From assembly GCA_964363685.1 (NCBI GenBank), contig CAYIJG010000003.1:1-35185 (forward strand): a DNA stretch of 35,185 nucleotides. Direction: 5' to 3'. Positions 19,738 to 33,774 of this stretch are shown in pieces (the first letter of the stretch is position 1; every line of letters begins with the position of its first letter). Source of the stretch: an uncultured Gammaproteobacteria bacterium (GTDB lineage: Bacteria > Patescibacteriota > Patescibacteriia > Magasanikbacterales > GWA2-37-8). The notes under the pieces are model-generated. The model saw only the letters and a list, made by a program, of their open reading frames with translations. It was not told where the DNA came from and ran no database searches. The position numbers and the translations under genes were made by a program.

Positions 19738-19808
19738 AAAAAACAAAAACTCCGTTCGCCCTGATCTATCTCCAATTACTTAGAAACAAATCAGGTGGTG
19801 CGAACGGA
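19738..19808 (-). terminator. long-loop hairpin terminator module downstream of the GC-rich ORF (T module, island 1)
   Basis: Minus-strand CTCCGTTCGC-(ACCAC)-CTGAT-24 nt AT-rich loop-ATCAG-G-GCGAACGGAG followed by TTTTTGTTTTTT. Confidence 0.6.
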
Positions 19809-19858
19809 GTCTCGCACCACCGCCCCCGTGCATTGACGCGCGAGGAGCGTGGTGTCCG

Positions 19859-20191
19859 CTAGTCCGGCTGATCCGAACGTTCCACGCCTTCGCGCGAACG
19901 CCACTGGATCAGGTCGAACCGACGCTTGAACTCGGCGCAGGCCACGATCGCAGGACCCCGGTGACCGAGGCCGATGCGGACGTGACGCATGACGTTGCCA
20001 GTGCCGTCGAACTCGTGGCACGGCTCCATCCGGCAGTCCTGACCGCCGCTGCCGTTGCCATCGGTCGACATCAGCACGTTGCTGGAGGTACCGTCATCGT
20101 GGAACAGAACGGCCTCCTTCTTGCCAGTGTCTCCGTCGGTTGCGCCGGTGATCATGAGGTGATCACCATCTCGAGCAATTGCCTCTGCCAT
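19859..20191 (-). CDS. foreign high-G+C ORF A, hypothetical 110-aa protein
   Basis: ATG preceded by a purine-rich GGGGGGAAGGA. Third codon positions are mostly G/C in this frame (read by eye). Own upstream promoter and downstream terminator. No family recognised. Confidence 0.6.
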   Translation of the reverse strand: MAEAIARDGDHLMITGATDGDTGKKEAVLFHDDGTSSNVLMSTDGNGSGGQDCRMEPCHEFDGTGNVMRHVRIGLGHRGPAIVACAEFKRRFDLIQWRSREGVERSDQPD

Positions 20192-20284
20192 TGTCTTGTC
20201 TCGATCCTTCCCCCCGGTTTCCCAGGAAAATGAATAACAATCGCGTTATTACCCCTTTTCCGGTGAAAATTATTTCAATAAAAA

Positions 20285-20313
20285 ATATTACCAAATTTTA
20301 GGCAATTTGTCAA
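20285..20313 (-). promoter_or_regulatory. sigma70-type promoter for ORF A (TTGACA-17-TAATAT)
   Basis: Minus-strand TTGACA at 20313-20308 and TAATAT at 20290-20285, within the AT-rich spacer between two GC-rich blocks. Confidence 0.6.
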
Positions 20314-20361
20314 TGCCTTAAATCGAGATCTGCATACAACCTATTAATGCAAGCGTCTATA

Positions 20362-20390
20362 TTGACAAAGGAGCCTTTCTGTGATAATCT
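20362..20390 (+). promoter_or_regulatory. sigma70-type promoter for ORF B (TTGACA, TGtGATAAT extended -10)
   Basis: TTGACA at 20362-20367. GATAAT at 20383-20388 is preceded by TGT. Divergent from the ORF A promoter. Confidence 0.55.
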
Positions 20391-20577
20391 AGTTTGTTAT
20401 TAGAGTTGTTTTTTGTTACTAATTTATGACAAAAATCCTTAATAGCATGTACCTTACAATAAACATGTGATCTATTGAGTGCCAGGAAATTAAGAAAGTT
20501 TGCCTAAGCAAGTATTTTTAATTCCCTGGTTCTCTCTCAACCTCAACCCCTCAACACCCTGGCCAAAGGAGCCTCTC

Positions 20578-21054
20578 ATGAGCGAGTTCGTATTGGCGAT
20601 TCCCGTGGCGCTGGTCATCCTCTTCTTGATCTGGAAGATCTGGCGGTACCTCAACCGACGCCTCGAAGAAGCCTTCGTGGAATGGTCCAATACTACCGGA
20701 CAGATGAAGTGGAAGGTGATCGCCATCTTCAGCCAGATCATCCTCCTGTTGCTGGTGCTCGCGATCGTCCCCGGTATTGCGTTGTTCGGGGGCGGGTGGA
20801 AGAGTGTCGGCGACTTCGTCCATTACAAGAATGGCGACGTCGGCATGCTCATCTACGGCCACTGGAACCTCTCACCGGCGATGGCGAACTACTACCTCAT
20901 GGGCGACGTCGTCCTGGGACTACCGCTTCTGATGATAGTGTTCTCAGTCATCGTCGAACCGGCGATGTTCCTCGCAGGCGGGTACAGGTACTTCCCATTC
21001 GTCGGGCCCTTCGGTCGATGGGTGGCGCCACCCTCGAGGAGGCGGTCACGGTAG
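20578..21054 (+). CDS. foreign high-G+C ORF B, hypothetical 158-aa membrane protein
   Basis: Start chosen at the ATG 6 nt after AAGGAG (20566-20571). About 4 hydrophobic helices and strongly G/C-biased third positions. The track ORF from 20500 includes AT-rich leader. Confidence 0.65.
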   Translation: MSEFVLAIPVALVILFLIWKIWRYLNRRLEEAFVEWSNTTGQMKWKVIAIFSQIILLLLVLAIVPGIALFGGGWKSVGDFVHYKNGDVGMLIYGHWNLSPAMANYYLMGDVVLGLPLLMIVFSVIVEPAMFLAGGYRYFPFVGPFGRWVAPPSRRRSR

Positions 21055-21206
21055 TTGCTACTGATCAAGCCCTTCGGGGCAAGATCCATGAGCGGCTCGG
21101 ACGCAACGCGCGACCGACCACCGCTCAGACCCACACCATCCGAGCCGCTTACGCTACCTAATAATTAATTTGTTATGTTGCGTAAGCTCAGATGAGAATT
21201 AAATTT

Positions 21207-21238
21207 AAAAAAGCCTTTTCAAAAGAAGGGCTTTTTTA
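21207..21238 (+). terminator. rho-independent terminator after ORF B
   Basis: AGCCTTT-CAAAA-GAAGGGCT hairpin (with G-T pairs) followed by TTTTTT. Confidence 0.6.
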
Positions 21239-21256
21239 GTTGAAGGATTTTTGATA

Positions 21257-21284
21257 TGCTCCGTTTGTGGAACGACGTTAGAAC
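21257..21284 (+). repeat. R repeat copy 4 (T-GCTCCGTTTGTGGAACGACGTTAGAAC)
   Basis: 28 nt, one base shorter at the 5' box. Sits between the ORF B terminator and the ORF C terminator. Confidence 0.75.
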
Positions 21285-21324
21285 TTTTTATAACTACAAA
21301 ACAATATAGTTTCGTTAGTGAGTT

Positions 21325-21366
21325 TAAAAAAACACCTTACTGTTTTAAAGTAAAGTGTTTTTTATT
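21325..21366. terminator. bidirectional hairpin terminator downstream of ORF C
   Basis: AACACCTTACT-GTTTTAA-AGTAAAGTGTT stem flanked by an A-run and a T-run. Confidence 0.6.
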
Positions 21367-21472
21367 TTTATATATCGAGATCTCCACTGCTATATTTATT
21401 TGCAATCATATAAACATAGCAGCTAGGAAGACCTCGAGAGATCGCCCCGCCGCGCGGTTTCACTAACGACTA

Positions 21473-21856
21473 TTAACGACTGTAGATAGAGTTGTGGAAA
21501 CCCGTGTCGTTGTTCTCACGGATTGGTGTGAAAACGTAGGCAGGTGCGAGTGCCTCCGGGGGACACTGACGAAAGAAGTCGTCTTCACATCCCCTAAATT
21601 CCTGCCACGGCGGAAAATCACTGACAGAGATAGAGCCAGGGGTGCGCGGATGTCCAAGACAGCCGTTACGGACATGTCCTTCGAGGATCTTGAGCAGATT
21701 CCCCATCACCGTTCCAAAGAGCTCGGGCGAAGTGAAGTGAACCTCTCCATCGAAATCGTCAGGAAACTGAATTCTGTTGAAGCGGAGGTCTGTCAGTATT
21801 GGCTCTAGATGCCACCGGTGTGCTGCCTGACATGGCGCTGTAGGAGTCGCCACCAC
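21473..21856 (-). CDS. foreign GC-rich ORF C2 (second reading frame; possible 3' part of a frameshifted gene)
   Basis: 127 codons open after a TAG, with only a GTG start. Protein-like translation (LTDLRFNRIQFPDDFDGEVHFTSPELFG...). Overlaps ORF C1 by 98 nt in another frame. Confidence 0.45.
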   Translation of the reverse strand: MVATPTAPCQAAHRWHLEPILTDLRFNRIQFPDDFDGEVHFTSPELFGTVMGNLLKILEGHVRNGCLGHPRTPGSISVSDFPPWQEFRGCEDDFFRQCPPEALAPAYVFTPIRENNDTGFHNSIYSR

Positions 21857-22277
21857 GCTCTAGACAGCCGTCAGCGCTAAGACCGCGGGAAATGTGGGGG
21901 AAGGGATCTGTCCATCCCAAACCAGCGAGCATGCCCACATTGATCCTGAACTCCCAGTAGGCATTCGTCTCGAGCTCAAACTCTTTCCGTTGAGAAGAGC
22001 GGCCAGACGGTGATCTGGTGATCGTTTCTACGTAGCGAGGATGGAGCAGGAGCGCCATCCCAGGAACGCCGAAGAAGAGGGTGGTGATCCGGAGAAGCGC
22101 CAGATTGGCCACGTCGTTGTCGGGCAGCATCATGACGGTCCGGCGGACGGCGTGGTAGATCGAATCAATCGAAGCACTACCGAGGAAACGCAGAGTACCA
22201 ATGGCCGTGGCCGCCTTCACACATTCATCGAAGTAGCGGTCGGGAGTCGGGATATGAGCAAGCGGCCGATTAAGCAT
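21759..22277 (-). CDS. foreign GC-rich ORF C1, hypothetical protein
   Basis: Start set at the ATG (22277) preceded by AAGGGG. The track start at 22334 lies in AT-rich leader. 172 codons; no family recognised. Confidence 0.55.
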   Translation of the reverse strand: MLNRPLAHIPTPDRYFDECVKAATAIGTLRFLGSASIDSIYHAVRRTVMMLPDNDVANLALLRITTLFFGVPGMALLLHPRYVETITRSPSGRSSQRKEFELETNAYWEFRINVGMLAGLGWTDPFPHISRGLSADGCLERGGDSYSAMSGSTPVASRANTDRPPLQQNSVS

Positions 22278-22394
22278 GTGTAACCCCTTGTTATCCGTTT
22301 GGTCAAGTAAAAAAGAGCCGACTAACCGTATCATAAGTTTTTTATAAAGTCAAGATTGTGTCGTGCAGAAATTAATACTCGTAAAATGTACGCA

Positions 22395-22425: not shown

Positions 22426-22433
22426 TTTCTAAG

Positions 22434-22505
22434 CTCCCAGGGTCGGATTCGAACCGACGACCAACTCGTTAACAGCGAGCTGCGCTACCGCTGCGCTACC
22501 TGGGA
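22434..22505 (-). tRNA. tRNA-Asn (anticodon GTT)
   Basis: 72-nt cloverleaf read by hand. Acceptor stem TCCCAGG/CCTGGGA and D arm GCGC-AGCGGTA-GCGC. Anticodon arm GCTCG-CTGTTAA-CGAGT and T arm GTCGG-TTCGAAT-CCGAC. Discriminator G; CCA not encoded. Confidence 0.9.
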
Positions 22506-22525: not shown

Positions 22526-22545
22526 CCTGCCTGCCGGTAGGCAGG
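22526..22545. repeat. 20-nt palindromic element CCTGCCT-GCCGGT-AGGCAGG
   Basis: Perfect 7-bp stem in the tRNA-Asn leader. The same stem, with the loop in reverse-complement form, occurs at 32980-32999. Confidence 0.7.
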
Positions 22546-26704: not shown

Positions 26705-26781
26705 TTCGTCTCGGAGATTAACTTGCCAATTTTGATTGTTGAATTTTAGAGGGGTTAAACTAATACTATTAATTAGATAAT

Positions 26782-27417
26782 TTAAATGAATTTATAAAAC
26801 CAAAATACCGCGCTAAATAACTTATTCATTAATACCCCATTAAACACAAAATTGTCAACTATCAAAATGCCTATAAAAATATATTGACCATTCTTCATTA
26901 AAAAATTGGCTATCTTGAGAGAATTAAATTTTTGCAATAAATCAAGGACTAGTTTTGAACCATCAAATGGCGGTAAAGGAATAAGGTTCGTCACCAAAAA
27001 TAAAGCATTTATCAATATAAATGATTGTAAAAATAAACTAACGTTTAAAGCCAGTGGCAATCCTGTCCAAGCTACTACAAATTTACCGGCAAAAATAACT
27101 ACAACTAAAATAATAAGATTTGCCAACGGACCTGCCAAAGCCACCAGAGTAGAACCAAAACCAGGATAACGAAGACTAGTCGGGTCAAATTTTACCGGCT
27201 TGGCCCAACCAACACCAAACAATAACAACAAAAGCAATCCTAGTGGATCGATATGAGAAAAAGGCAATAAAGACAGTCGGCCATCGTTTTTTGGTCTCTG
27301 GTCCCCCAAAATATAAGCTGCCAAAGCGTGGCCAAACTCATGAACTGTCAGACTAACTAAAGAGGCTACTAACCAAAATATTGCTCCCCATGGAGAAATT
27401 AAAAAAAATGAAGGCAT
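26782..27417 (-). CDS. site-2 protease family (peptidase M50) membrane metalloprotease
   Basis: 211-aa polytopic ORF with the HEFGHALAA zinc motif and LPFSHIDPLG. Confidence 0.8.
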   Translation of the reverse strand: MPSFFLISPWGAIFWLVASLVSLTVHEFGHALAAYILGDQRPKNDGRLSLLPFSHIDPLGLLLLLLFGVGWAKPVKFDPTSLRYPGFGSTLVALAGPLANLIILVVVIFAGKFVVAWTGLPLALNVSLFLQSFILINALFLVTNLIPLPPFDGSKLVLDLLQKFNSLKIANFLMKNGQYIFIGILIVDNFVFNGVLMNKLFSAVFWFYKFI

Positions 27418-27428
27418 AAGCTATTTTC

Positions 27429-28586
27429 TTAGATTAACTCTCCTACTGGCAGGCTTGTCCAGTCAGAAACAATTTGTTTGATATCGTTTTCTGTGACAAC
27501 TGGCGACCCTTCGGCATTTTCAATTTTTATATCATCTAGAGCTTTAATTAGATGCTCTATCTTATGACGAACTTCGGCCACTTCAGAATCATCTTTCATC
27601 TCTGACTCAAGTTTTTTAAAATGATTCAGCTCCGCTTCTAACTCTTGCTTATGCTCTAAAATCTCAGCTTTAAAAATCTGTTTATTACCGCCAGCGGCAT
27701 GCAACAATCCTGCCACATGCAAATGTTCGTGGCTTGCTTCTATTCCCGCCTTAGCGCCTGCCTCATCAATCAAATCGATGGCTTTATCAGGTAAATAGCG
27801 CCCTTTGATATATTTTGATAGATGAACGGCCGCTTGCAAGGCTTCATCAGAAAATTTAACCTGATGATGATCTTCGTAGACTTTTTTTATGCCACGGATT
27901 ATTTCTAGCGCATCTGCATCTTTTGGTTCATTGACTATAATTGGCTGAAACCGACGATCGAGAGCATCGTCCGGCCGAATAAACTCTTCATACTCCCTGG
28001 AAGTGGTCGCGCCGATAGTTTGCAAATCACCCCGAGCCAAAGCCGGTTTCAAGATATCAGAAACATTTAACGCGCCTTCTGAACCCTTGGCCTGCACAAT
28101 CATGTGCACCTCATCAATAAACAAAATAATTTGGCGCTTAGCCTTAAGAATTTCTGAAAGTAATTTCTTTACCCGCTCTTCAAATTCACCCCGATATTTA
28201 GTACCAGAAATCATCCCTCCCAAATCGAGAGCCAAGACACGTTTATTTTGCAAATTTTTGGGAACATCTCCAGAAGCAATCCGCAAGACCAACCCTTCCA
28301 CAACCGCAGTTTTACCCACACCGGGAGCGCCAAGAAGAATAGGATTATTTTTTGTTTTTCGCGAAAGAATATGAATCATTCTTTCTGTTTCTTCTTCTCT
28401 GCCAAAAACTAATTCAAGCTTGCCCATCTTTGCTTCAGCGGTTAAATCTTTGGTGTAGGCTGGTAAAAAATTCACTCCATTTCCAAATTTAGGATATTTA
28501 CGCCACAACAAATACAAACCAACAAGTACAATAAATACGACAAGAGTCCAGGGATTTGTAACGAGGCTTTGTATAAATGGAGGCAT
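27429..28586 (-). CDS. membrane-anchored Clp/Hsp100-type AAA+ ATPase (single D1-like module)
   Basis: N-terminal TM. GREEETERMIHILSRKTKNNPILLGAPGVGKTAVVEGL (Walker A), ILFIDEVHMIV (Walker B), GATTSREYEEFI...DALDRRFQPI. No second AAA module. Confidence 0.8.
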   Translation of the reverse strand: MPPFIQSLVTNPWTLVVFIVLVGLYLLWRKYPKFGNGVNFLPAYTKDLTAEAKMGKLELVFGREEETERMIHILSRKTKNNPILLGAPGVGKTAVVEGLVLRIASGDVPKNLQNKRVLALDLGGMISGTKYRGEFEERVKKLLSEILKAKRQIILFIDEVHMIVQAKGSEGALNVSDILKPALARGDLQTIGATTSREYEEFIRPDDALDRRFQPIIVNEPKDADALEIIRGIKKVYEDHHQVKFSDEALQAAVHLSKYIKGRYLPDKAIDLIDEAGAKAGIEASHEHLHVAGLLHAAGGNKQIFKAEILEHKQELEAELNHFKKLESEMKDDSEVAEVRHKIEHLIKALDDIKIENAEGSPVVTENDIKQIVSDWTSLPVGELI

Positions 28587-28636
28587 GCTAATTTTTTAAC
28601 TTATTTAAGAGTATGTAACGGGAACAGTACTAATAT

Positions 28637-29083
28637 TTACATGCCAGCGACACAATAAATACTTTCTGGAGAAACATGTCTGACACCATTAACACAAGTT
28701 CCTGTTTTTATCCAAGTCCTGGTTTGTCTCCCTGAGTTTGGACAAACTCTTGGGGTGACTGCGCTTGTCCAATCAGCTTCGGTACAGACAGGTGTGGTAG
28801 AGAGAGTTGAGCTAGTGCTGGTCGATGGAGTAGGTTGAGGACCGCTTACCCCAACAGTAGAACTAGAAGGTGGTGGTGTTGTGACAGGACCAGACGCCCC
28901 GACGGTAGAAGTATTACCAGTAGGCGTGGTTGTTGAAGAGGATGGAACAAGCTTACTATTTATAAGTCCCTTTTTTTGAAGCACAACTAGTCCTGCAACT
29001 ATACTTCCTAAAGCTAAAAATCCGACGATTACTTTGGTGCTTGTTTTTATACTTGTTTTGGTGGTTGTGCCTAGGTTATTCAT
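28637..29083 (-). CDS. membrane-anchored Thr/Ser/Pro-rich surface protein
   Basis: 148-aa ORF. The N-terminal 31 residues are nearly identical to those of the next gene. Low-complexity linker and Cys-containing C-terminal module. Confidence 0.6.
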   Translation of the reverse strand: MNNLGTTTKTSIKTSTKVIVGFLALGSIVAGLVVLQKKGLINSKLVPSSSTTTPTGNTSTVGASGPVTTPPPSSSTVGVSGPQPTPSTSTSSTLSTTPVCTEADWTSAVTPRVCPNSGRQTRTWIKTGTCVNGVRHVSPESIYCVAGM

Positions 29084-29118
29084 ATTTTAAATATGATATT
29101 AATAAAATAACTTGACTA

Positions 29119-30990
29119 CTATAAAGAATAATTCAAAACTCCACCATCAACTACATATGAATCTGATGCTGAGAACGGACCCATTTCACTCCCAAAAATA
29201 GGGGTATAAAAATACTCCAAATCTCCAGTTCTCCAAGCAACAGCGCCCCAACCAATTGAACCAGAAATAAAAGGACGGAGACTTATATTTACTGGGAATT
29301 GACCAGGTTGAATCATATCGACTGTACTAGCTGTAACAATAAGTGTTCTAGAAGCTCCTGGAGAAATAGCAAAGTAATCCAACAAAGCATTAATGTCGTT
29401 ACTTGCATTGAAAGTAATAGTAGTCGTAGGTACGGTACTTGAGGTAATTACAGCATTTGATTGAGCTAGGTAGGTACCCAAAGCCCCATTCCCATTATCT
29501 TCGTATAGTCTGAAGTCGTTAATTAATCCTAAACCGAGACCAGACTTTATTACAGAAACTTTAACAGAAGAAAATCTTAAATCACGAGTGCCGGCATTTG
29601 TAACAGTAAATTTAAATATTTTAGCCCTAGAATCTAAAGACAAAGTATTACCAAGAGACGCGCTAGATATTACAGGGAAAGCATCATGAAAAACATTTGG
29701 TCTTGATCTGGCAAATCTGGATTCTAAAGGACCAGTAGCGCTATCTAAATTATAATTTATATTTTGACGACCTAAAGATACACCAAAAGGATCAAACGCC
29801 TCTATATCACTACTCTGGTCGCTGGCTATCACAAAAGCTGTAGGCACATTGTTGACCATTGTGCCAGAAGGATTTATATTACCTTTTAAGGTATAAACCT
29901 TATCGCCATTGGCTGGGATACTTGAGACAAAACCACTAAACACAACGATGCCTTGAACATAATTACCTGTAGCTAATAAATTAGTCCCATCATATAAAGA
30001 TAATGTCCCAAACGTGCCAAGAGTGGAAAGCAAAGCGCCTCCGTTTGGATTTACAGTCTGAAGAGTTAATTTCATTAAATTTACTCTACTATCCAAACCA
30101 CTAGCACGGGCACCAATCCTCCATTTACCTAACTGTACACCGACTGAATCAGGTCCATAAATTCTAGAATCCGAAACGACGTCAATGTTGTTAATATTAA
30201 GACTGGCGGTCGTTGTGACAGTTGTTGTTGTTGGTGTTGGGGTAGAGGTTGGAGTGGGGGTCGAAGAGCAGGGATGCGAACCACAACCACTTGTGGCACA
30301 ACGGGTAGATTTCCATTGGCCCTGTGAATTATAGAGCGCCATCTGCCATTGTGCGCTGTTTGAATTTGTAGCGCAGTATACGGTCATTAGCGAATTATTA
30401 ACACTGTTTGTACATATTAACGCTAACTCCTCAAAAGTGGACGCTTCTGGATGATTTTGTTTGGCATAGCCAGCGGCAGAATTGGCACTAAAATAACCTG
30501 GTAAATTGGTGTATTCGTTACGCACGATACAAGCACCGATATCTTGAGTCAACGGAGTTGGGGTGGTGGTTGGAGTTGGCGGAGTGGTGGTTGGGGCTGT
30601 AAGAGGAACACATCTGCCATCAAGACACTTTGTAGTTACTGCTGGACAGAGAGAATTAACTGAAGCTATAGAAGTTTTTGTACCACAATAATATTCTTTT
30701 ACTTCTTCTTTGCTTAAACAAACATCTGCGTTTGAAGTAACTGGAACGCCATTTTGATCTTGGAGACTGGTAACACCCGCTATATCTATTCTTATTCCCC
30801 CGTCGGAATCATTACAGGCAAGATTACTTGGGGTGGTAGTTGGAGGAGGAAAAATGGTTGGGGCAAAAAGCTTCGACTTGTTTTTAAATAAAACTACGCC
30901 TGCCACTATACTTCCTAAAGCTAAAAATCCGACGATTACTTTGGTACTTGTTTTTACACCTGTTTTAGTGGCTGTGCCAAAATTATCCAT
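29119..30990 (-). CDS. large membrane-anchored surface protein
   Basis: 623-aa ORF with an N-terminal anchor. Its C.DSDGG...EYYCG...C.DGRCV module is shared with the 11601-12602 lipoprotein. Pro/Thr linkers and a large beta-rich C-terminal region. Confidence 0.7.
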   Translation of the reverse strand: MDNFGTATKTGVKTSTKVIVGFLALGSIVAGVVLFKNKSKLFAPTIFPPPTTTPSNLACNDSDGGIRIDIAGVTSLQDQNGVPVTSNADVCLSKEEVKEYYCGTKTSIASVNSLCPAVTTKCLDGRCVPLTAPTTTPPTPTTTPTPLTQDIGACIVRNEYTNLPGYFSANSAAGYAKQNHPEASTFEELALICTNSVNNSLMTVYCATNSNSAQWQMALYNSQGQWKSTRCATSGCGSHPCSSTPTPTSTPTPTTTTVTTTASLNINNIDVVSDSRIYGPDSVGVQLGKWRIGARASGLDSRVNLMKLTLQTVNPNGGALLSTLGTFGTLSLYDGTNLLATGNYVQGIVVFSGFVSSIPANGDKVYTLKGNINPSGTMVNNVPTAFVIASDQSSDIEAFDPFGVSLGRQNINYNLDSATGPLESRFARSRPNVFHDAFPVISSASLGNTLSLDSRAKIFKFTVTNAGTRDLRFSSVKVSVIKSGLGLGLINDFRLYEDNGNGALGTYLAQSNAVITSSTVPTTTITFNASNDINALLDYFAISPGASRTLIVTASTVDMIQPGQFPVNISLRPFISGSIGWGAVAWRTGDLEYFYTPIFGSEMGPFSASDSYVVDGGVLNYSL

Positions 30991-31039
30991 ATTTTGAAAT
31001 ATGCTACTAAAAGCATAATTAATAAATAAAACTGGTATT

Positions 31040-31069
31040 ATTATACACCGCCTTGTTTAAAATAACCAA
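31040..31069 (-). promoter_or_regulatory. sigma70-type promoter of the 623-aa surface protein gene (TTGGTT-18-TATAAT)
   Basis: Minus-strand TTGGTT at 31069-31064 and TATAAT at 31045-31040, immediately downstream of a GGATAAGT motif. Confidence 0.55.
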
Positions 31070-31095
31070 TACTTATCCCCCTTCATTATTTTTAT

Positions 31096-31162
31096 AAAAA
31101 CAAAAAGTCGCCTGTCTACTAGTTTCTACGAATTTGTAAAAAATAATAGGCAATGGGCGACT
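31096..31162 (-). terminator. T module of cassette alpha (long-loop hairpin + U tail)
   Basis: Minus-strand AGTCGCC-CAT-TGCCTA-28 nt AT loop-TAGACA-GGCGACT followed by TTTTTGTTTTT. About 80% identical to 31736-31803 with compensatory stem changes. Confidence 0.65.
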
Positions 31163-31203
31163 CTCTGCGAACCCATTTTGTCCAGCAGGCGCGCTTTCTT
31201 TAA

Positions 31204-31467
31204 TCAAGCACGCGGAGAAGAAGGGCTGGCAGGCTCCAAGTTCGTGTAGAACAAACACTTGAACTTGACAGTTCCGCCAATTGCTTCTCCCAGCGTTGGA
31301 AACGACTCAGCCCCAGCAAAGAGGTTGGTGATATGCACCATCATCTCGGGTGAAATCTTCCCATCCCCATGAGAAGGAATAGCCTCACAACGTCGGCCCT
31401 TGCTGGGAGAGAAAGAAGCGTTTCGTCCCCTGCCACGAACCAAGACAAACAATTCAACCTCGCTCAT
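31204..31467 (-). CDS. foreign GC-rich ORF alpha, hypothetical 87-aa protein
   Basis: Start set at the ATG (31467), 9 nt after AGGTGG. MSEVELFVLVRGRGR... Sits between the P and T modules; no family recognised. Confidence 0.5.
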   Translation of the reverse strand: MSEVELFVLVRGRGRNASFSPSKGRRCEAIPSHGDGKISPEMMVHITNLFAGAESFPTLGEAIGGTVKFKCLFYTNLEPASPSSPRA

Positions 31468-31675
31468 AGCAGGAAACCACCTTCTGAGCTGGAGAAAAAA
31501 AGAAAGTTCCAAAATGGGAGGCCGAGTGGCCTTGGCAAGTCAGAAGACCTGCCGAACTTTCACATCCACATCAGTTTGCATGCTTGCTACCTAAAATATT
31601 TTAGATAAAAAATATGCAAACCAATTTGGAATAATTTTTTCTCAAAAGTGGGTTAAAAAAATAAAGAACTGCATA

Positions 31676-31704
31676 ATTATAGTCACAAAAAATTTGTATG
31701 TCAA
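31676..31704 (-). promoter_or_regulatory. P module of cassette alpha: perfect consensus promoter TTGACA-17-TATAAT
   Basis: Minus-strand TTGACA at 31704-31699 and TATAAT at 31681-31676, followed by the conserved TATGCAGTTCTTTA. Confidence 0.7.
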
Positions 31705-31735
31705 TATAAAACTTATCCACTTTTATTAATCTTAT

Positions 31736-31803
31736 AAAAACAAAAAGACCGCCTGCTCACTAGTTTCTACAATAAGTAAAAAATAATGAGCATGAAGGCG
31801 GTC
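31736..31803 (-). terminator. T module of cassette beta (long-loop hairpin + U tail)
   Basis: Minus-strand GACCGCC-TTCA-TGCTCA-27 nt AT loop-TGAGCA-GGCGGTC followed by TTTTTGTTTTT. Confidence 0.65.
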
Positions 31804-31875
31804 GTCTGTCGAACAGGCGAGCTCCTCCAAGCTCACTGCTTGCGCCCGTCCCTTGTGGGGCGGGATTGGGGTTGA

Positions 31876-32283
31876 TCAGACCCGCTGTTCGCGCCGATCG
31901 GCGAGGTACGGGCGGCGGCGCTGACGCGGGAGACGCGGCTGGATGTCGATGTCCATGTCCCAGGCCACCTGAGCGAAGGACGCACGCTTGAACGAACGAC
32001 GAACCACCGACGCGTCGCGCCGATCCACCTCCACCATGTCCAGGTTCTGGAGCACGGACACGAAGCGCACGGCCTCCCCGAGCGTCTCCACGCAGTGGGT
32101 GATGTGGAACACCGGGAAGAAGGCCTGGATCTGGGTGATCTCGGACTCCTTCGAGAGGGTCGGGACGATGCTGCGCTGCTCCGGCGGCACCTGGCCGACC
32201 GGGATCAGCCCCACATGGAACTGCATGCGCTGCCCTTTGCTGCGAGGCGCCTGGGACTCGATGATACACGGGATGAATGACAT
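31876..32283 (-). CDS. foreign high-G+C ORF beta, hypothetical 135-aa protein
   Basis: Start at the ATG (32283), 8 nt after GGGGAG. In the first about 40 codons I read, nearly every third position is G or C. MSFIPCIIESQAPRSKGQRMQFHVGLIPVGQ... No family recognised. Confidence 0.65.
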   Translation of the reverse strand: MSFIPCIIESQAPRSKGQRMQFHVGLIPVGQVPPEQRSIVPTLSKESEITQIQAFFPVFHITHCVETLGEAVRFVSVLQNLDMVEVDRRDASVVRRSFKRASFAQVAWDMDIDIQPRLPRQRRRPYLADRREQRV

Positions 32284-32480
32284 TGCGTACACTCCCCACG
32301 ACAGATCACGAAAGCTCCGTATGGAAGGTCACTCGACCTCAGACTATCGCAAACGCGACGGTCTAGCTTCCAATAACTATACAATTTAGTGCCATGCTGA
32401 ACGAAAAGAAAAACTTAACAGAAATTCTTCGCTTCATTCAGAATGACAACTAAAAATTGAGAGATTTAAAGAACTGCAAA

Positions 32481-32509
32481 ATTATAGCCATAAAACCCCT
32501 AAATGTCAA
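32481..32509 (-). promoter_or_regulatory. P module of cassette beta: perfect consensus promoter TTGACA-17-TATAAT
   Basis: Minus-strand TTGACA at 32509-32504 and TATAAT at 32486-32481, followed by the conserved TTTGCAGTTCTTTA. Confidence 0.7.
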
Positions 32510-32542
32510 GGTAAAACTTATCCACCGCTATATTTTTAAAAC

Positions 32543-32580
32543 AAATAACCCCGCCCCGCATATGCGGGGCGGGGTTATTT
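32543..32580 (-). terminator. G/C-rich hairpin terminator of the DUF378 gene
   Basis: AAATAACCCCGCCCCGC-ATAT-GCGGGGCGGGGTTATTT, followed on the minus strand by a T-rich run. Same 13-bp core stem as 8364-8393. Confidence 0.7.
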
Positions 32581-32598
32581 GTTTTTGTCTGAAAAAGT

Positions 32599-32823
32599 TT
32601 ACACCATCGGTTTTTTTTCACAACATTTACAATCTTTCTTGTGAGTAGATAAAACAACGATAGCTGAAAGACCGACTAAGACATAGATTACTCTGGAAAG
32701 CGTTGCGCCTTGACCGCCAAAGAGCACGCCGATGTCCCAATTAAATAAACCAACGAGTAACCAGTTTAAACCGCCAATAACAAGTAGCAAAAATGCTACC
32801 ATGTGTAATTTTGAATTTTGCAT
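32599..32823 (-). CDS. DUF378-family small membrane protein
   Basis: 74-aa ORF. LLLVIGGLNWLLVGLFNWDIGVLFGG..ATLSRVIYVLVGLSAI is the DUF378 signature. Strong SD AAAGGAGGTGA. Confidence 0.8.
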   Translation of the reverse strand: MQNSKLHMVAFLLLVIGGLNWLLVGLFNWDIGVLFGGQGATLSRVIYVLVGLSAIVVLSTHKKDCKCCEKKPMV

Positions 32824-32889: not shown

Positions 32890-33774
32890 TTATAAAATCA
32901 ACCCTTCGCGATTTTCTTGTTCTTGTTTTTGTAAAATATAGACATCGGCATTATATTCATCGTTACCGACAAATTCTGCCCTGCCTACCGGCAGGCAGGC
33001 TTTCTTATCTATAATCGCTTCCATCGGCGAACAGGTATTACAACCCTCACCTTGCGGACATTTAAATCTCTCCAGCTGGCGCGCTAACTTTACTTGTCTA
33101 GCAACATCTGTAATCTTTTTTTGGGCTGTTTCTATATCTGGTAATTCTTTTGGAGTTAGGTCATCACTGCTGTCCAAATACCAATAACTTGCCCGACTAG
33201 CTTGTCGTTTTTGACAGCGCTCTACCAGCAAGCGATAAATCGGCAATTGCAAAGACTCCGGGTCCTCTTCAGCCTTGCCGGTTTTAAAATCTATAATATG
33301 GACACTATCGGTCTCGGGCAGATATTCCAACCAATCTACTTTGCCACACAAAATAATGTTATCTTCTTCAGATAACCAAAAATACGGCAAGTCCATTTGG
33401 ATTTTGATAGCCAGTCCTGAGATTGGCCCGGGATTATTCATCACCCGACGAATCATATCTTGACCGCGAGTTTTGTATTTATATTCTGATTCTGGAGAAG
33501 TAAACCCGCCTTTTTTGCCCGTCACTTTGCTCCAAGATTTTTCAAACTTATCCATGAGAGAATCGGAAAAGCGAGAATGTTTTGGTAACACTGATAATGA
33601 CTCCAAGACTTCATGCACTGCTTGCCCCAAAGCCAACGACGGAGCCATCAGTTTTATTTTGTGATTTGTCTTTGGATCACGATAGACATTTTTGAGATAA
33701 TAAGCACGAGGACAACGCAAAAAATCGCTGATGGAAGTGTGCGATACCCAGGTGGCCGTGTATTTGTCTGGCAT
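32890..33774 (-). CDS. PD-(D/E)XK nuclease, Cas4/RecB-like with Cys cluster
   Basis: FLRCPRAYYL (N-terminal Cys), GKVDWLEY...IIDFKTGK (D...D/ExK), QLPIYRLL. C-terminal CPQGEGCNTC, consistent with an Fe-S Cas4/AddB-type fold. Confidence 0.75.
   Translation of the reverse strand: MPDKYTATWVSHTSISDFLRCPRAYYLKNVYRDPKTNHKIKLMAPSLALGQAVHEVLESLSVLPKHSRFSDSLMDKFEKSWSKVTGKKGGFTSPESEYKYKTRGQDMIRRVMNNPGPISGLAIKIQMDLPYFWLSEEDNIILCGKVDWLEYLPETDSVHIIDFKTGKAEEDPESLQLPIYRLLVERCQKRQASRASYWYLDSSDDLTPKELPDIETAQKKITDVARQVKLARQLERFKCPQGEGCNTCSPMEAIIDKKACLPVGRAEFVGNDEYNADVYILQKQEQENREGLIL
32980..32999. repeat. 20-nt palindromic element CCTGCCT-ACCGGC-AGGCAGG inside the nuclease ORF
   Basis: Same stem as 22526-22545 with the loop reverse-complemented. 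Translated in frame as ...CLPVGRAEF... near the C-terminus. Confidence 0.7.

What the first reader, a model, noticed from the sequence alone, without database searches (positions are those of the whole stretch)
31040..32590. Two tandem self-contained expression cassettes: conserved AT-rich promoter and terminator ends, unrelated GC-rich cargo
On the minus strand, the space between the DUF378 gene and the 623-aa surface-protein gene holds two units of identical architecture. Each unit is a P module, a 190-200 nt leader, a GC-rich ORF with its own SD, and a T module. The P module is a perfect TTGACA-17-TATAAT followed by conserved T.TGCAGTTCTTTA. The T module is a long-loop hairpin plus TTTTTGTTTTT. 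The P modules (31661-31720 vs 32464-32525) match at about three quarters of roughly 57 positions. The T modules (31071-31162 vs 31711-31803) match at about 80% of roughly 93 positions. The leaders and cargo ORFs (87 aa and 135 aa) show no similarity to each other. The octamer ACTTATCC lies at all three junctions (31071, 31711, 32516). Joining the outer flanks would recreate a simple native terminator-promoter intergenic region. Foreign coding DNA is thus framed by host-style expression signals that travel with it. That is not how integron cassettes (normally promoterless), IS elements or prophages are organised. I read it as a possibly undescribed mobile or gene-capture cassette family; no recombinase is visible in the window.
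Basis: partly seen in the sequence, partly recalled or inferred. Interest (0 to 1): 0.85.

Follow-up and report, generated by a model that had tools for sequence, protein, structure and literature searches.

The report
Gene-swapping expression slot in a CPR bacterium
Next to one gene of an ultra-small groundwater bacterium, a fixed promoter–leader–terminator frame is strongly conserved while the small, oddly GC-rich orphan gene inside it has been swapped between close relatives, as in shuffling cassettes known from T4-like phages but not from bacterial chromosomes.

Summary
Two tandem minus-strand units (32525–31711 and 31720–31071) each have a perfect TTGACA-17-TATAAT promoter, a ~190–200-nt structured leader, a GC-rich ORF and a conserved hairpin terminator. 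Independent assemblies from several samples cross the two internal AT/GC junctions (32520, 31710); only one fetched contig crosses 31070.

Syntenic relatives (Magasanikbacteria-like CPR) carry the same frames downstream of the DUF378 gene, with five cargo classes showing no detectable similarity to one another (A, B/D, C, E1, E2). Two pairs (L009/L018, L013/L023) show coding-sequence replacement inside conserved frames.

It is not shown to be a mobile element. I found no recombinase, and the P and T modules occur only at this slot in the sequence I could search. Swap boundaries lie in the leader and at or just after the stop codon, not at the ACTTATCC octamer.

"Recently foreign" cargo is doubtful. 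Cargo A has diverged at four-fold sites as much as host genes (58% vs 59% identity) yet keeps GC3 near 0.88, so its GC-richness is maintained in place.

The closest known analogues are phage PeSL terminator–promoter cassettes and morons. I rate it a new variant of a known kind. Cargo function is unknown.

The parts
32599..32823 (-). DUF378 membrane-protein gene, the conserved upstream anchor of the slot
   Evidence: Pfam PF04070, E = 7e-19. Orthologs at 74-100% identity anchor the syntenic loci L008, L013, L016-L023.
32538..32585 (-). DUF378 intrinsic terminator, a perfect 24+24 palindrome; not part of the conserved frame
   Evidence: the repeat finder I2; fold -42 kcal/mol. This region is only 54% identical to L016, about the neutral level.
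32464..32525 (-). P module A: GGATAAGT (32516-32523), -35 TTGACA (32504-32509), -10 TATAAT (32481-32486), conserved transcript start TTTGCAGTTCTTTA
   Evidence: It is 97% identical to L016, against 59% at neutral sites.
32284..32474 (-). Leader A (5'UTR, ~191 nt): AU-rich long hairpin (~32390-32448) plus a GC-rich multi-stem domain (~32311-32370) with a CCUUCC/GGAG element, then the Shine-Dalgarno sequence GGGGAG
   Evidence: RNAalifold on 4 sequences: 45 pairs, 4 with compensatory changes. MFE z = -4.2. No Rfam family.
31876..32283 (-). Cargo A CDS, 135 aa, orphan protein, GC 66%, GC3 0.88
   Evidence: The ORF is kept with in-frame indels in three fetched homologs (63-71% identity). dN/dS about 0.5. 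GC1/2/3 = 0.67/0.42/0.88. No hit in Pfam, PHROGs, PADLOC, NCBIfam or PDB. No homolog outside the family in 1.84 billion representatives.
31804..31875 (-). 3'UTR A: conserved block starting at the stop codon (TGATCAACCCCAA...CAAGGGACGG...), with a stem-loop carrying a GGAGG loop
   Evidence: Alignments A4 and A8. The same 3'UTR follows cargos D (L018), E (L023) and C (L013).
31736..31803 (-). T module A: extended hairpin of ~25 bp (31747-31803) plus U-tract UUUUUGUUUUU (31736-31746)
   Evidence: Fold -31.4 kcal/mol, z = -8.1. Its hairpin stem pairs are unchanged in every A-type frame examined, and it is 96% identical to L016. CM score 90 bits.
31659..31720 (-). P module B: GGATAAGT (31711-31718), -35 (31699-31704), -10 (31676-31681), ATGCAGTTCTTTA
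   Evidence: It is 92% identical to L016.
31468..31669 (-). Leader B (5'UTR, ~202 nt), with the nested hairpin GGUUUGCAU...CUAAAAUAUUUUAG...AUGCAAAC (31565-31630)
   Evidence: the repeat finder I1. MFE z = -7.3. It is 84-97% identical to L016 and L008. The same hairpin occurs in the leaders of units C and E.
31204..31467 (-). Cargo B CDS, 87 aa, orphan protein, GC 52%
   Evidence: Only itself in 5.8 billion proteins. Weak but significant pairwise similarity to B'' of L016 (E = 6e-6) and D of L018 (E = 4e-5). AF2 model unusable, pLDDT 45.
31163..31203 (-). 3'UTR B
   Evidence: It is 73% identical to L016.
31096..31162 (-). T module B: extended hairpin plus UUUUUGUUUUU
   Evidence: Fold -23.3 kcal/mol, z = -6.1. 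The mid-stem changes CUAUUA/UAGUAG (window) to CCGUUG/UAACGG (L016) keep pairing. CM score 84 bits.
30991..31083 (-). Third junction: GGATAAGT (31071-31078) plus the promoter and 5'UTR of the 623-aa surface-protein gene
   Evidence: It is 83% identical to L016.
29119..30990 (-). 623-aa surface-protein gene, the downstream neighbour. It belongs to a ~5-kb block that is absent from the one-unit relatives

Best explanation
This is a single hypervariable 'expression slot' just downstream of the DUF378 gene in a Magasanikbacteria-like CPR chromosome. It holds one or two paralogous monocistronic units. Each unit is a fixed regulatory frame: a consensus sigma-70 promoter with an upstream GGATAAGT element, a structured 5'UTR of about 190 nt, a structured 3'UTR and a ~25-bp hairpin terminator. 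The frame drives one small GC-rich orphan ORF.

Shown: the frame is under strong purifying selection. The coding sequence, from its Shine-Dalgarno sequence to its stop codon, evolves fast and has been replaced several times between close relatives.

Inferred: replacement happens by homologous recombination that uses the conserved leader and the 3'UTR/terminator as arms, either between tandem or paralogous units or between DNA of related strains. No dedicated recombinase is involved. Each unit makes an abundant, stable monocistronic mRNA. The leader may gate translation, because it carries a CCUUCC anti-Shine-Dalgarno-like element.

Shown for cargo A: the high GC content is kept in place by some force. 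Whether that force is selection or GC-biased conversion in a recombination hot spot is inferred, not shown.

Cargo function is unknown. Fast turnover and orphan status fit roles in conflict, such as phage defence or symbiont-host interaction. That is speculation.
For: Architecture and specificity.

Real DNA: contigs from separate samples cross the two internal junctions.

Same slot and frames with different cargos:
- window: A + B
- L008, L016: A' + B''; L017: A' plus the start of a second unit, its contig ending in P module B
- L009: A'' only
- L018: D in an A-type frame
- L013 = L011: C
- L023, L024: E1 + E2

Replacement rather than divergence:
- L009 vs L018: T module 99%, downstream flank 97%, distal leader about 90%, CDS unalignable. 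L009 also keeps about 14 nt of a D-like CDS end after A's own stop codon.
- L013 vs L023: FkbM 96%, P module and leader 85%, 3'UTR and T module 88%, cargo with no match.

Constraint on the frames: host four-fold sites are 59% identical between the window and L016 (n = 462), while P-A is 97%, T-A 96%, P-B 92% and leader B 84%.

Structure: the leaders and 3'UTR/T regions are structured (z = -4 to -7, with compensatory pairs), but the CDSs are not (z = 0.05 and -1.4).

Coding: cargo A has codon periodicity, in-frame indels and dN/dS about 0.5.

Single locus, no mobility genes.

GC maintained: cargo A four-fold sites differ by 42% against 41% in host genes, yet are 84-88% GC against 38%.
Against: - No direct evidence of transcription, translation or recombination intermediates.
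- Only about 106 kb of DNA from this lineage could be searched with sensitive models. The exact-pattern scans of the large collections would miss diverged P modules; L018's copy would have been missed. Extra units or silent copies elsewhere in these genomes are therefore not excluded.
- For the window vs L016/L008 comparison, neutral divergence is so high that the B/B'' difference (29-35% amino-acid identity) could be divergence in place rather than replacement.
- Three cargos with no detectable similarity join the 3'UTR at or within about 10 nt of the stop codon. Random homologous or illegitimate recombination does not obviously predict that.
- The source of new cargos is unknown.
Confidence: 0.6

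Rival explanations
1. One reading: a mobile or gene-capture cassette family. Whole P...T units, delimited by the octamer ACTTATCC, are inserted by site-specific recombination and bring foreign genes together with their own expression signals.
For: Unit number differs between relatives: two in the window, L008 and L016, one in L009, L013, L018 and L023. The octamer lies at all three junctions. Cargo composition is very different from the host's.
Against: No recombinase in the window. P and T modules were found only at this slot and not in viral contigs. Cargo swaps have their boundaries in the leader and at or near the stop codon, not at the octamer. The one-unit and two-unit states differ by a ~5-kb block that includes housekeeping-type genes (AAA ATPase, M50 peptidase), not by one cassette. 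Cargo A has been resident as long as the host genes have been diverging.
Confidence: 0.08
2. Ordinary tandem paralogs inherited vertically. One ancestral small gene was duplicated, and its coding sequences drifted beyond recognition while the regulatory regions stayed conserved. Nothing was ever replaced.
For: Units A and B are homologous along the promoter, parts of the leader and the terminator. Neutral divergence between the window and L016 is high (59% identity at four-fold sites), so a nearly unconstrained CDS such as B could become unalignable in place. Cargo A behaves as a vertically inherited gene. B, B'' and D are detectably related.
Against: L009 and L018 have T modules and downstream flanks 97-99% identical, yet carry cargos A and D, which show no detectable similarity. 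D is related to B, the cargo of the other unit type. L009 also keeps a D-like CDS tail behind A's stop codon. L013 and L023 (FkbM 96%) carry cargos with no match to each other. The leaders are mosaic: unit C combines an A-type start with the B-type hairpin.
Confidence: 0.12
3. A programmed expression site, as in antigenic-variation systems. Silent, promoterless cargo copies elsewhere in the genome are copied into the slot by gene conversion, using the leader and 3'UTR as homology arms.
For: The expressed site is fixed, with conserved 5' and 3' arms that abut the CDS, and the 3' arm starts at or near the stop codon for three unrelated cargos. Surface-protein genes lie directly downstream.
Against: No archive copy of any cargo or arm in the 35-kb window or in 71 kb of related loci. 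These genomes are presumed small (my own knowledge of CPR genomes). The cargos have no signal peptide or transmembrane segment that I could see in the sequences (inspection only).
Confidence: 0.07
4. The GC-rich islands are structured non-coding RNA genes, and the ORFs are chance products of GC-rich sequence.
For: GC-rich islands with their own promoter and terminator in an AT-rich genome are typical of structured RNAs. GC-rich DNA gives long spurious ORFs on both strands. Cargo B shows no codon periodicity.
Against: No Rfam family even at permissive thresholds. The CDS regions have no excess folding energy (z = 0.05 and -1.4), while the UTRs do. Cargo A has GC1/2/3 = 0.67/0.42/0.88, in-frame indels across its alleles and dN/dS about 0.5.
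Confidence: 0.03

Closest known systems
PeSL (promoter-early stem-loop) regulatory cassettes of T4-like phages (Arbiol et al. 2010, PMC2839356; Comeau et al. 2014, PMC4122927)
   Same: Composite terminator stem-loop plus strong sigma-70 consensus promoter, with an AT-rich stretch upstream of -35. They are conserved over about 100 bp, sit between small orphan genes in hypervariable regions, and serve as homology for insertion, deletion and replacement of the flanked ORFs between close relatives, so that each ORF travels with its own promoter and terminator.
   Different: Here the host is a cellular (CPR) chromosome rather than a phage. There are only 2-3 junctions at one slot instead of about 50 per genome. 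Conservation extends far beyond the junction into a ~190-nt structured 5'UTR and a 3'UTR. The observed swap boundaries lie in these UTRs rather than in the terminator-promoter junction. The cargo is strongly GC-rich relative to the genome. There is no sequence similarity to phage PeSLs, and mini-circles could not be tested.
Phage morons (definition as quoted in PMC2920897, which credits the concept to its reference 20, cited there as Hendrix et al.)
   Same: An independent transcription unit (own promoter and terminator) inserted between two genes, with nucleotide composition different from its surroundings, variably present among relatives, and with insertion hot spots where different morons occupy the same place.
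   Different: Morons are defined within phage or prophage genomes. No phage genes are present here. Morons do not share a conserved regulatory frame with one another. Here the frame is the conserved part and the ORF is what changes.
Integron gene cassettes
   Same: A tandem array of small, compositionally odd, often orphan ORFs separated by imperfect-palindrome elements at one chromosomal site.
   Different: No IntI integrase, no attC core sites, and every unit has its own strong promoter, whereas integron cassettes are normally promoterless and read from Pc (my own knowledge of integrons).
Hypervariable loci exchanged through conserved flanks, such as capsule or O-antigen loci (named from my own knowledge)
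   Same: One chromosomal site, conserved flanks acting as recombination arms, unrelated alleles in close relatives, and atypical GC content.
   Different: Those loci are multi-gene operons flanked by conserved genes and are usually AT-rich. Here the arms are non-coding regulatory RNA elements and the exchanged unit is a single small ORF.

Membership tests
PeSL regulatory cassettes (T4-like phages) | Composite motif: stem-loop terminator plus sigma-70 consensus promoter with an AT-rich upstream region, within about 100 bp | tested here: met
   T hairpin plus U-tract, about 30 nt of AT-rich spacer, then TTGACA-17-TATAAT at 31676-31803.
PeSL regulatory cassettes (T4-like phages) | Many copies (about 50) per genome, concentrated in the hyperplastic regions of a T4-like phage genome | tested here: not met
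   Two P and two T modules in 35 kb, all at one slot. One P module in the one GTDB representative genome that has it. None in viral contigs. No phage genes.
PeSL regulatory cassettes (T4-like phages) | They flank orphan ORFs that differ between closely related genomes (modular shuffling) | tested here: met
   Five cargo classes in the same frames across seven distinct loci.
PeSL regulatory cassettes (T4-like phages) | Recombination breakpoints lie within the PeSL motif itself | tested here: not met
   CDS swaps break in the leader and at or near the stop codon. Only the boundary of the 5-kb block lies in the junction after T-A.
PeSL regulatory cassettes (T4-like phages) | Excised mini-circles carrying an ORF plus one chimeric PeSL | not testable with these tools
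   This needs raw reads or PCR.
Phage moron | Own promoter and/or terminator | tested here: met
Phage moron | GC content different from the surrounding genome | tested here: met
   Cargo GC 52-69% against about 38% for the window.
Phage moron | Inserted between genes of a phage or prophage | tested here: not met
   The neighbours are DUF378, a PD-(D/E)XK nuclease, SAM synthetase, surface proteins, an AAA ATPase and an M50 peptidase. No meaningful PHROGs hit (a single marginal one, E = 0.035) and no phage Pfam hits.
Integron cassette array | IntI tyrosine recombinase adjacent to the array | tested here: not met
   No integrase domain in any window ORF of 125 aa or more that was scanned. The rest of the genome was not available.
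Integron cassette array | attC sites (imperfect palindromes with RYYYAAC...GTTRRRY cores) at cassette boundaries, and promoterless cassettes | tested here: not met
   By inspection, the junctions carry GGATAAGT and a terminator hairpin without those cores. Each unit has a consensus promoter.
Diversity-generating retroelement target | Reverse transcriptase plus a template repeat nearly identical to the variable region | tested here: not met
   No reverse transcriptase domain. No second copy of any cargo in the window.
Described structured RNA family (Rfam 15) | Score at or above a family's gathering threshold | tested here: not met
   Only tRNA-Asn in the whole window. Nothing meaningful in 30900-32700 even at E up to 10.

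The most novel reading that the evidence does not exclude
CPR bacteria of this lineage keep a dedicated chromosomal ORF-exchange slot. A strongly conserved regulatory RNA frame (promoter, structured leader, 3'UTR starting at the stop codon, long hairpin terminator) acts both as an expression platform and as recombination arms for precise, ORF-sized swaps of fast-evolving orphan effectors. A local force tied to that exchange, either GC-biased conversion or selection on the mRNA, holds the cargo near GC3 0.85 in a genome whose GC3 is about 0.3. This would be a cellular, recombinase-free counterpart of integron or PeSL gene shuffling, possibly serving phage defence or symbiont-host conflict.
Probability: 0.2. 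Interest if true: 0.75.

Novelty: new variant of a known kind. Interest (0 to 1): 0.55.

Why it matters
How CPR bacteria, with tiny genomes and few classical mobile elements, gain and turn over new genes is poorly understood. This locus shows a concrete route. A conserved promoter–UTR–terminator frame lets unrelated small ORFs be exchanged and expressed at once, a mechanism so far documented only in T4-like phages.

It also gives a clean natural example of a gene that keeps extreme GC3 (0.84–0.88) inside an AT-rich genome over a time span in which about 40% of its synonymous sites changed. That makes the debate between selection and GC-biased gene conversion directly testable at one small locus.

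The strongly conserved leader and terminator RNAs have no Rfam family. They are candidates for new cis-regulatory elements.

Tried and rejected
- **Structured ncRNA genes:** rejected. Rfam gives nothing at gathering or permissive thresholds, and the CDS regions have no excess fold energy.
- **Assembly chimera:** rejected for the internal junctions, which separate assemblies cross.
- **Function of the cargos:** Pfam, PHROGs, PADLOC, NCBIfam and PDB sequence searches were all empty. The AF2 model of cargo A had pLDDT 58 and Foldseek against PDB gave no hit below E = 0.7. The AF2 model of cargo B had pLDDT 45 and I did not search with it.
- **GC-rich donor for cargo A:** the word-indexed search of 5.8 billion proteins and the exhaustive HMMER search of 1.84 billion representatives found only the family itself.
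- **Homology of cargo A with the B/D family:** not detected. My by-eye similarity between C and E1 was not confirmed by BLASTP.
- **Pairing between the conserved 5' end and the T module:** no better than shuffled controls.
- **Viral origin of the P and T modules:** the T pattern had 0 hits. The two P-pattern hits lack the -35 box and GGATAAGT, so they are chance matches.
- **One-unit state as a deletion derivative:** the small ORF upstream of FkbM is not an M50 remnant, so the polarity is unresolved.
- **Conserved uORF in leader B:** the frame is not conserved in L016 (inspection).
- **Relation to the other GC-rich islands at 19.7-22.3 kb:** no protein similarity. Their terminator scores only 13.7 bits with the T model.
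Full report
**1. The observation**

On the minus strand, between the DUF378 gene (32599-32823) and the 623-aa surface-protein gene (29119-30990), lie two units of the same design.

- Each starts with GGATAAGT, six bases, then a perfect TTGACA-17-TATAAT and TWTGCAGTTCTTTA. The 43-nt pattern matches at 31662-31704 and 32467-32509, with none expected by chance. These are the only two perfect consensus promoters in the 35-kb window.
- Leaders of about 191 and 202 nt follow, then ORFs of 135 aa (31876-32283) and 87 aa (31204-31467) with Shine-Dalgarno-like sequences.
- Each unit ends with a 3'UTR and a hairpin followed by UUUUUGUUUUU.
- Repeat finding and alignment confirm P-module identity of about 73-81% and T-module identity of about 83%.
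- GGATAAGT occurs at 31071, 31711 and 32516, plus once inside a gene.
- Cargo A is 66% GC (GC3 0.88) and cargo B 52% GC. Host genes have GC3 0.25-0.42.

One detail needs correcting. The terminator is not a long-loop hairpin. It folds into an extended stem of about 25 bp with an AU-rich upper part and a 5-6-nt loop (z = -6 to -8).

**2. Not an artefact and not an RNA gene**

The window is a contig from Hainich groundwater, 0.1-µm fraction. Contigs assembled separately from other samples cross the two internal junctions, 32520 and 31710, at 99.8-100% identity. Only one fetched contig (L012) crosses 31070.

Rfam finds only a tRNA in the window and nothing meaningful in the region, even at permissive thresholds. 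Folding energy exceeds shuffled controls in the leaders (z = -4.2 and -7.3) and in the 3'UTR/terminator regions (z = -6.9 and -4.0), but not in the coding parts (z = 0.05 and -1.4).

Cargo A shows the codon periodicity of a real high-GC gene (GC1/2/3 = 0.67/0.42/0.88). It keeps its frame through in-frame indels in its fetched homologs and has dN/dS of about 0.5. The GC-rich parts are therefore coding sequence.

**3. Context**

The window is an ordinary CPR-type chromosome segment: GreA, MFS transporter, CHAP, LytR, C39-like peptidases, SPFH, HAD hydrolase, FkbM methyltransferase, M50 peptidase, AAA ATPase, PD-(D/E)XK nuclease and SAM synthetase. There is no recombinase, reverse transcriptase or phage gene. 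DUF378 homologs point to Candidatus Magasanikbacteria.

**4. Relatives**

Cargo A has only three homologs among 5.8 billion proteins, at 63-71% identity. An exhaustive profile search of 1.84 billion representatives found nothing outside the family. Cargo B matches only itself.

Using these proteins and DUF378 orthologs as anchors, I recovered the same slot from other genomes:

| Locus | Content downstream of DUF378 |
|---|---|
| window | A + B |
| L008, L016 | A' + B'', then surface protein (L016 continues with AAA ATPase, M50) |
| L017 | A', then the contig ends in P module B (DUF378 identical to L008/L016) |
| L009 | A'' only |
| L018 | one unit: A-type leader, 3'UTR and terminator, different 138-aa cargo D, then FkbM |
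| L013 = L011 | one unit: cargo C, leader combining an A-type start with the B-type hairpin |
| L023, L024 | one unit: cargo E (two ORFs, E1 and E2) |
| L019, L020, L021 (DUF378 74% identical) | no P or T module |

B, B'' and D are weakly but significantly related (E = 6e-6 and 4e-5). A, C, E1 and E2 match nothing. No cargo matches Pfam, PHROGs, PADLOC, NCBIfam or PDB.

**5. Replacement is demonstrated**

- L009 and L018 are 99% identical in the T module, 97% in the downstream flank and about 90% in the distal leader. Their coding sequences (A and D) cannot be aligned. Behind A's own stop codon, L009 keeps about 14 nt that match the end of the D coding sequence, a footprint of replacement.
- L013 and L023 are 96% identical in FkbM and 85-90% in DUF378, P module, leader, 3'UTR and T module. 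Their cargos have no match.

The boundaries lie about 25-90 nt upstream of the ATG and at or just after the stop codon. In the window's unit A and in L023 the conserved 3'UTR begins with the stop codon itself (TGATCAACCCCAA), and L018's cargo D is close to this. They do not lie at the ACTTATCC octamer.

The one-unit and two-unit genomes differ by a ~5-kb block: unit B, two surface proteins, the AAA ATPase and the M50 peptidase. The direction of that change is unresolved.

**6. The frames are under constraint, and the cargo's GC-richness is maintained**

| Segment, window vs L016 | Identity |
|---|---|
| Host genes, four-fold degenerate sites (n = 462) | 59% |
| DUF378 terminator region | 54% |
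| P module A | 97% |
| T module A | 96% |
| P module B | 92% |
| Leader B | 84% |
| T module B | 77% |
| Leader A | 71% |
| 3'UTR A | 67% |

The P and T modules and leader B are far more conserved than neutral sites.

Leader A has a conserved two-domain fold with four compensatory pairs. The T hairpins of A and B types keep pairing through compensatory changes.

Cargo A's four-fold sites are 58% identical, the same as host genes, so it has been co-inherited with them. Those sites nevertheless stay 84-88% GC in all four alleles, against 38% in host genes. The differences split evenly between G/C swaps and GC/AT changes.

The GC-richness is therefore an equilibrium held in place, not a fading trace of recent import. 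I cannot say whether selection on codons or mRNA holds it there, or GC-biased conversion in a recombination hot spot.

**7. Distribution**

- An exact P-module pattern hit one GTDB contig, which is the same sequence as L013, and otherwise only this locus in the metagenome collection.
- Viral contigs gave no T match and two chance P matches.
- A covariance model of the T module scored 84-93 bits on the known copies, apart from the indel-bearing L008 B copy at 70 bits, and 14 bits or less elsewhere in the window and in 71 kb of related loci.

The modules are therefore neither generic signals nor a dispersed repeat. The exact-pattern scans would miss diverged copies, and complete genomes were not available.

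**8. Interpretation**

The best reading is a single hypervariable expression slot. Paralogous monocistronic units have a regulatory frame that is conserved by selection. That frame doubles as homology arms for replacing the enclosed small ORF.

- Shown: the architecture, its specificity, constraint on the frames, coding status of cargo A, replacement in two pairs of relatives, and the maintained GC of cargo A.
- Inferred: homologous recombination as the mechanism, strong expression, and any role of the leader in translational control.
- Speculative: a conflict-related function for the cargos.

**9. Comparison with known systems**

The closest known system is the PeSL of T4-like phages: composite stem-loop terminators plus consensus sigma-70 promoters that flank orphan ORFs in hyperplastic regions and mediate modular shuffling by homologous recombination (PMC2839356, sections read; PMC4122927).

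Morons share the self-contained unit, the odd GC content and the insertion hot spots (PMC2920897).

This locus works like those systems but is not a member of either. It lies in a cellular chromosome, at one slot, with long conserved structured UTRs, with breakpoints in the UTRs, and with GC-rich cargo. Integron and DGR membership tests fail.

I therefore rate it a new variant of a known kind, of moderate interest. The maintained GC3 and the unexplained precision of the 3' junctions are the most intriguing parts.

Noticed in passing
window 19739-22340: Three more GC-rich orphan islets: 19859-20191 on the minus strand (GC3 0.75), 20500-21161 on the plus strand, and 21473-22334 on the minus strand, next to tRNA-Asn (22433-22505). 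The first has its own promoter-like site and ends in a ~30-bp hairpin plus TTTTTGTTTTTT. The other two each hold two overlapping ORFs in different frames, which may mean frameshifted pseudogenes. None matches any protein family, and none resembles the slot cargos.
   Followed up: partly
window 22526-22545 and 32980-32999: A 20-nt palindrome, CCTGCCTRCCGGYAGGCAGG, occurs twice (0 expected). One copy is upstream of tRNA-Asn. The other is inside the PD-(D/E)XK nuclease gene, within a short stretch that the L008 and L013 orthologs replace with different sequence. It looks like a tiny palindromic insertion tolerated in a coding sequence.
   Followed up: partly
window 32405-32449; L018 1975-2085; L013 ~2350-2440: The 5' arm of the leader-A hairpin (GTCATTCTGAATGAAGCGAAGAAT) matches, in inverted orientation, one end of an inverted-repeat element that lies between DUF378 and the P module in L018 and L013. 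It may be a MITE- or REP-like repeat that was recruited into the leader.
   Followed up: no
window 26765-31716 compared with L018, L013 and L023: A ~5-kb block (unit B, two surface-protein paralogs, the AAA ATPase and the M50 peptidase) is present in the window and L016 but absent from L018, L013 and L023, where unit A's terminator is followed almost directly by the FkbM methyltransferase gene. L009 shares their post-terminator flank, but its contig ends before FkbM. The direction of gain or loss is unknown.
   Followed up: partly
window 28637-29083 and 29119-30990: Two adjacent surface-protein paralogs share a near-identical N-terminus (MxNxGTxTKTxxKTSTKVIVGFLALGSIVAG) followed by Thr/Pro-rich linkers. 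The promoter region of the larger one carries the same GGATAAGT element as the P modules.
   Followed up: no
L011 (GTDB contig CAZBWU010000009.1): This contig is labelled 'uncultured Gammaproteobacteria bacterium', but the slot sequences I read from it are identical to those of the CPR-like contig JACCDN010520487.1 (L013). The label or the binning is probably wrong.
   Followed up: no
L008 1760-2122 compared with L016 7345-7629: The B-type ORF of L008 reads through into the terminator (120 aa) because of small deletions relative to L016, where it ends properly at 94 aa. This is either a decaying allele or an assembly error in the short contig.
   Followed up: no
L019 6225-7514: In a more distant relative (DUF378 74% identical), the same position downstream of DUF378 has no P or T module. 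It holds what look like two moderately GC-rich small orphan ORFs on the opposite strand, each apparently with its own promoter-like and terminator-like signals (read by eye). The site may be a general hot spot for such islets.
   Followed up: no
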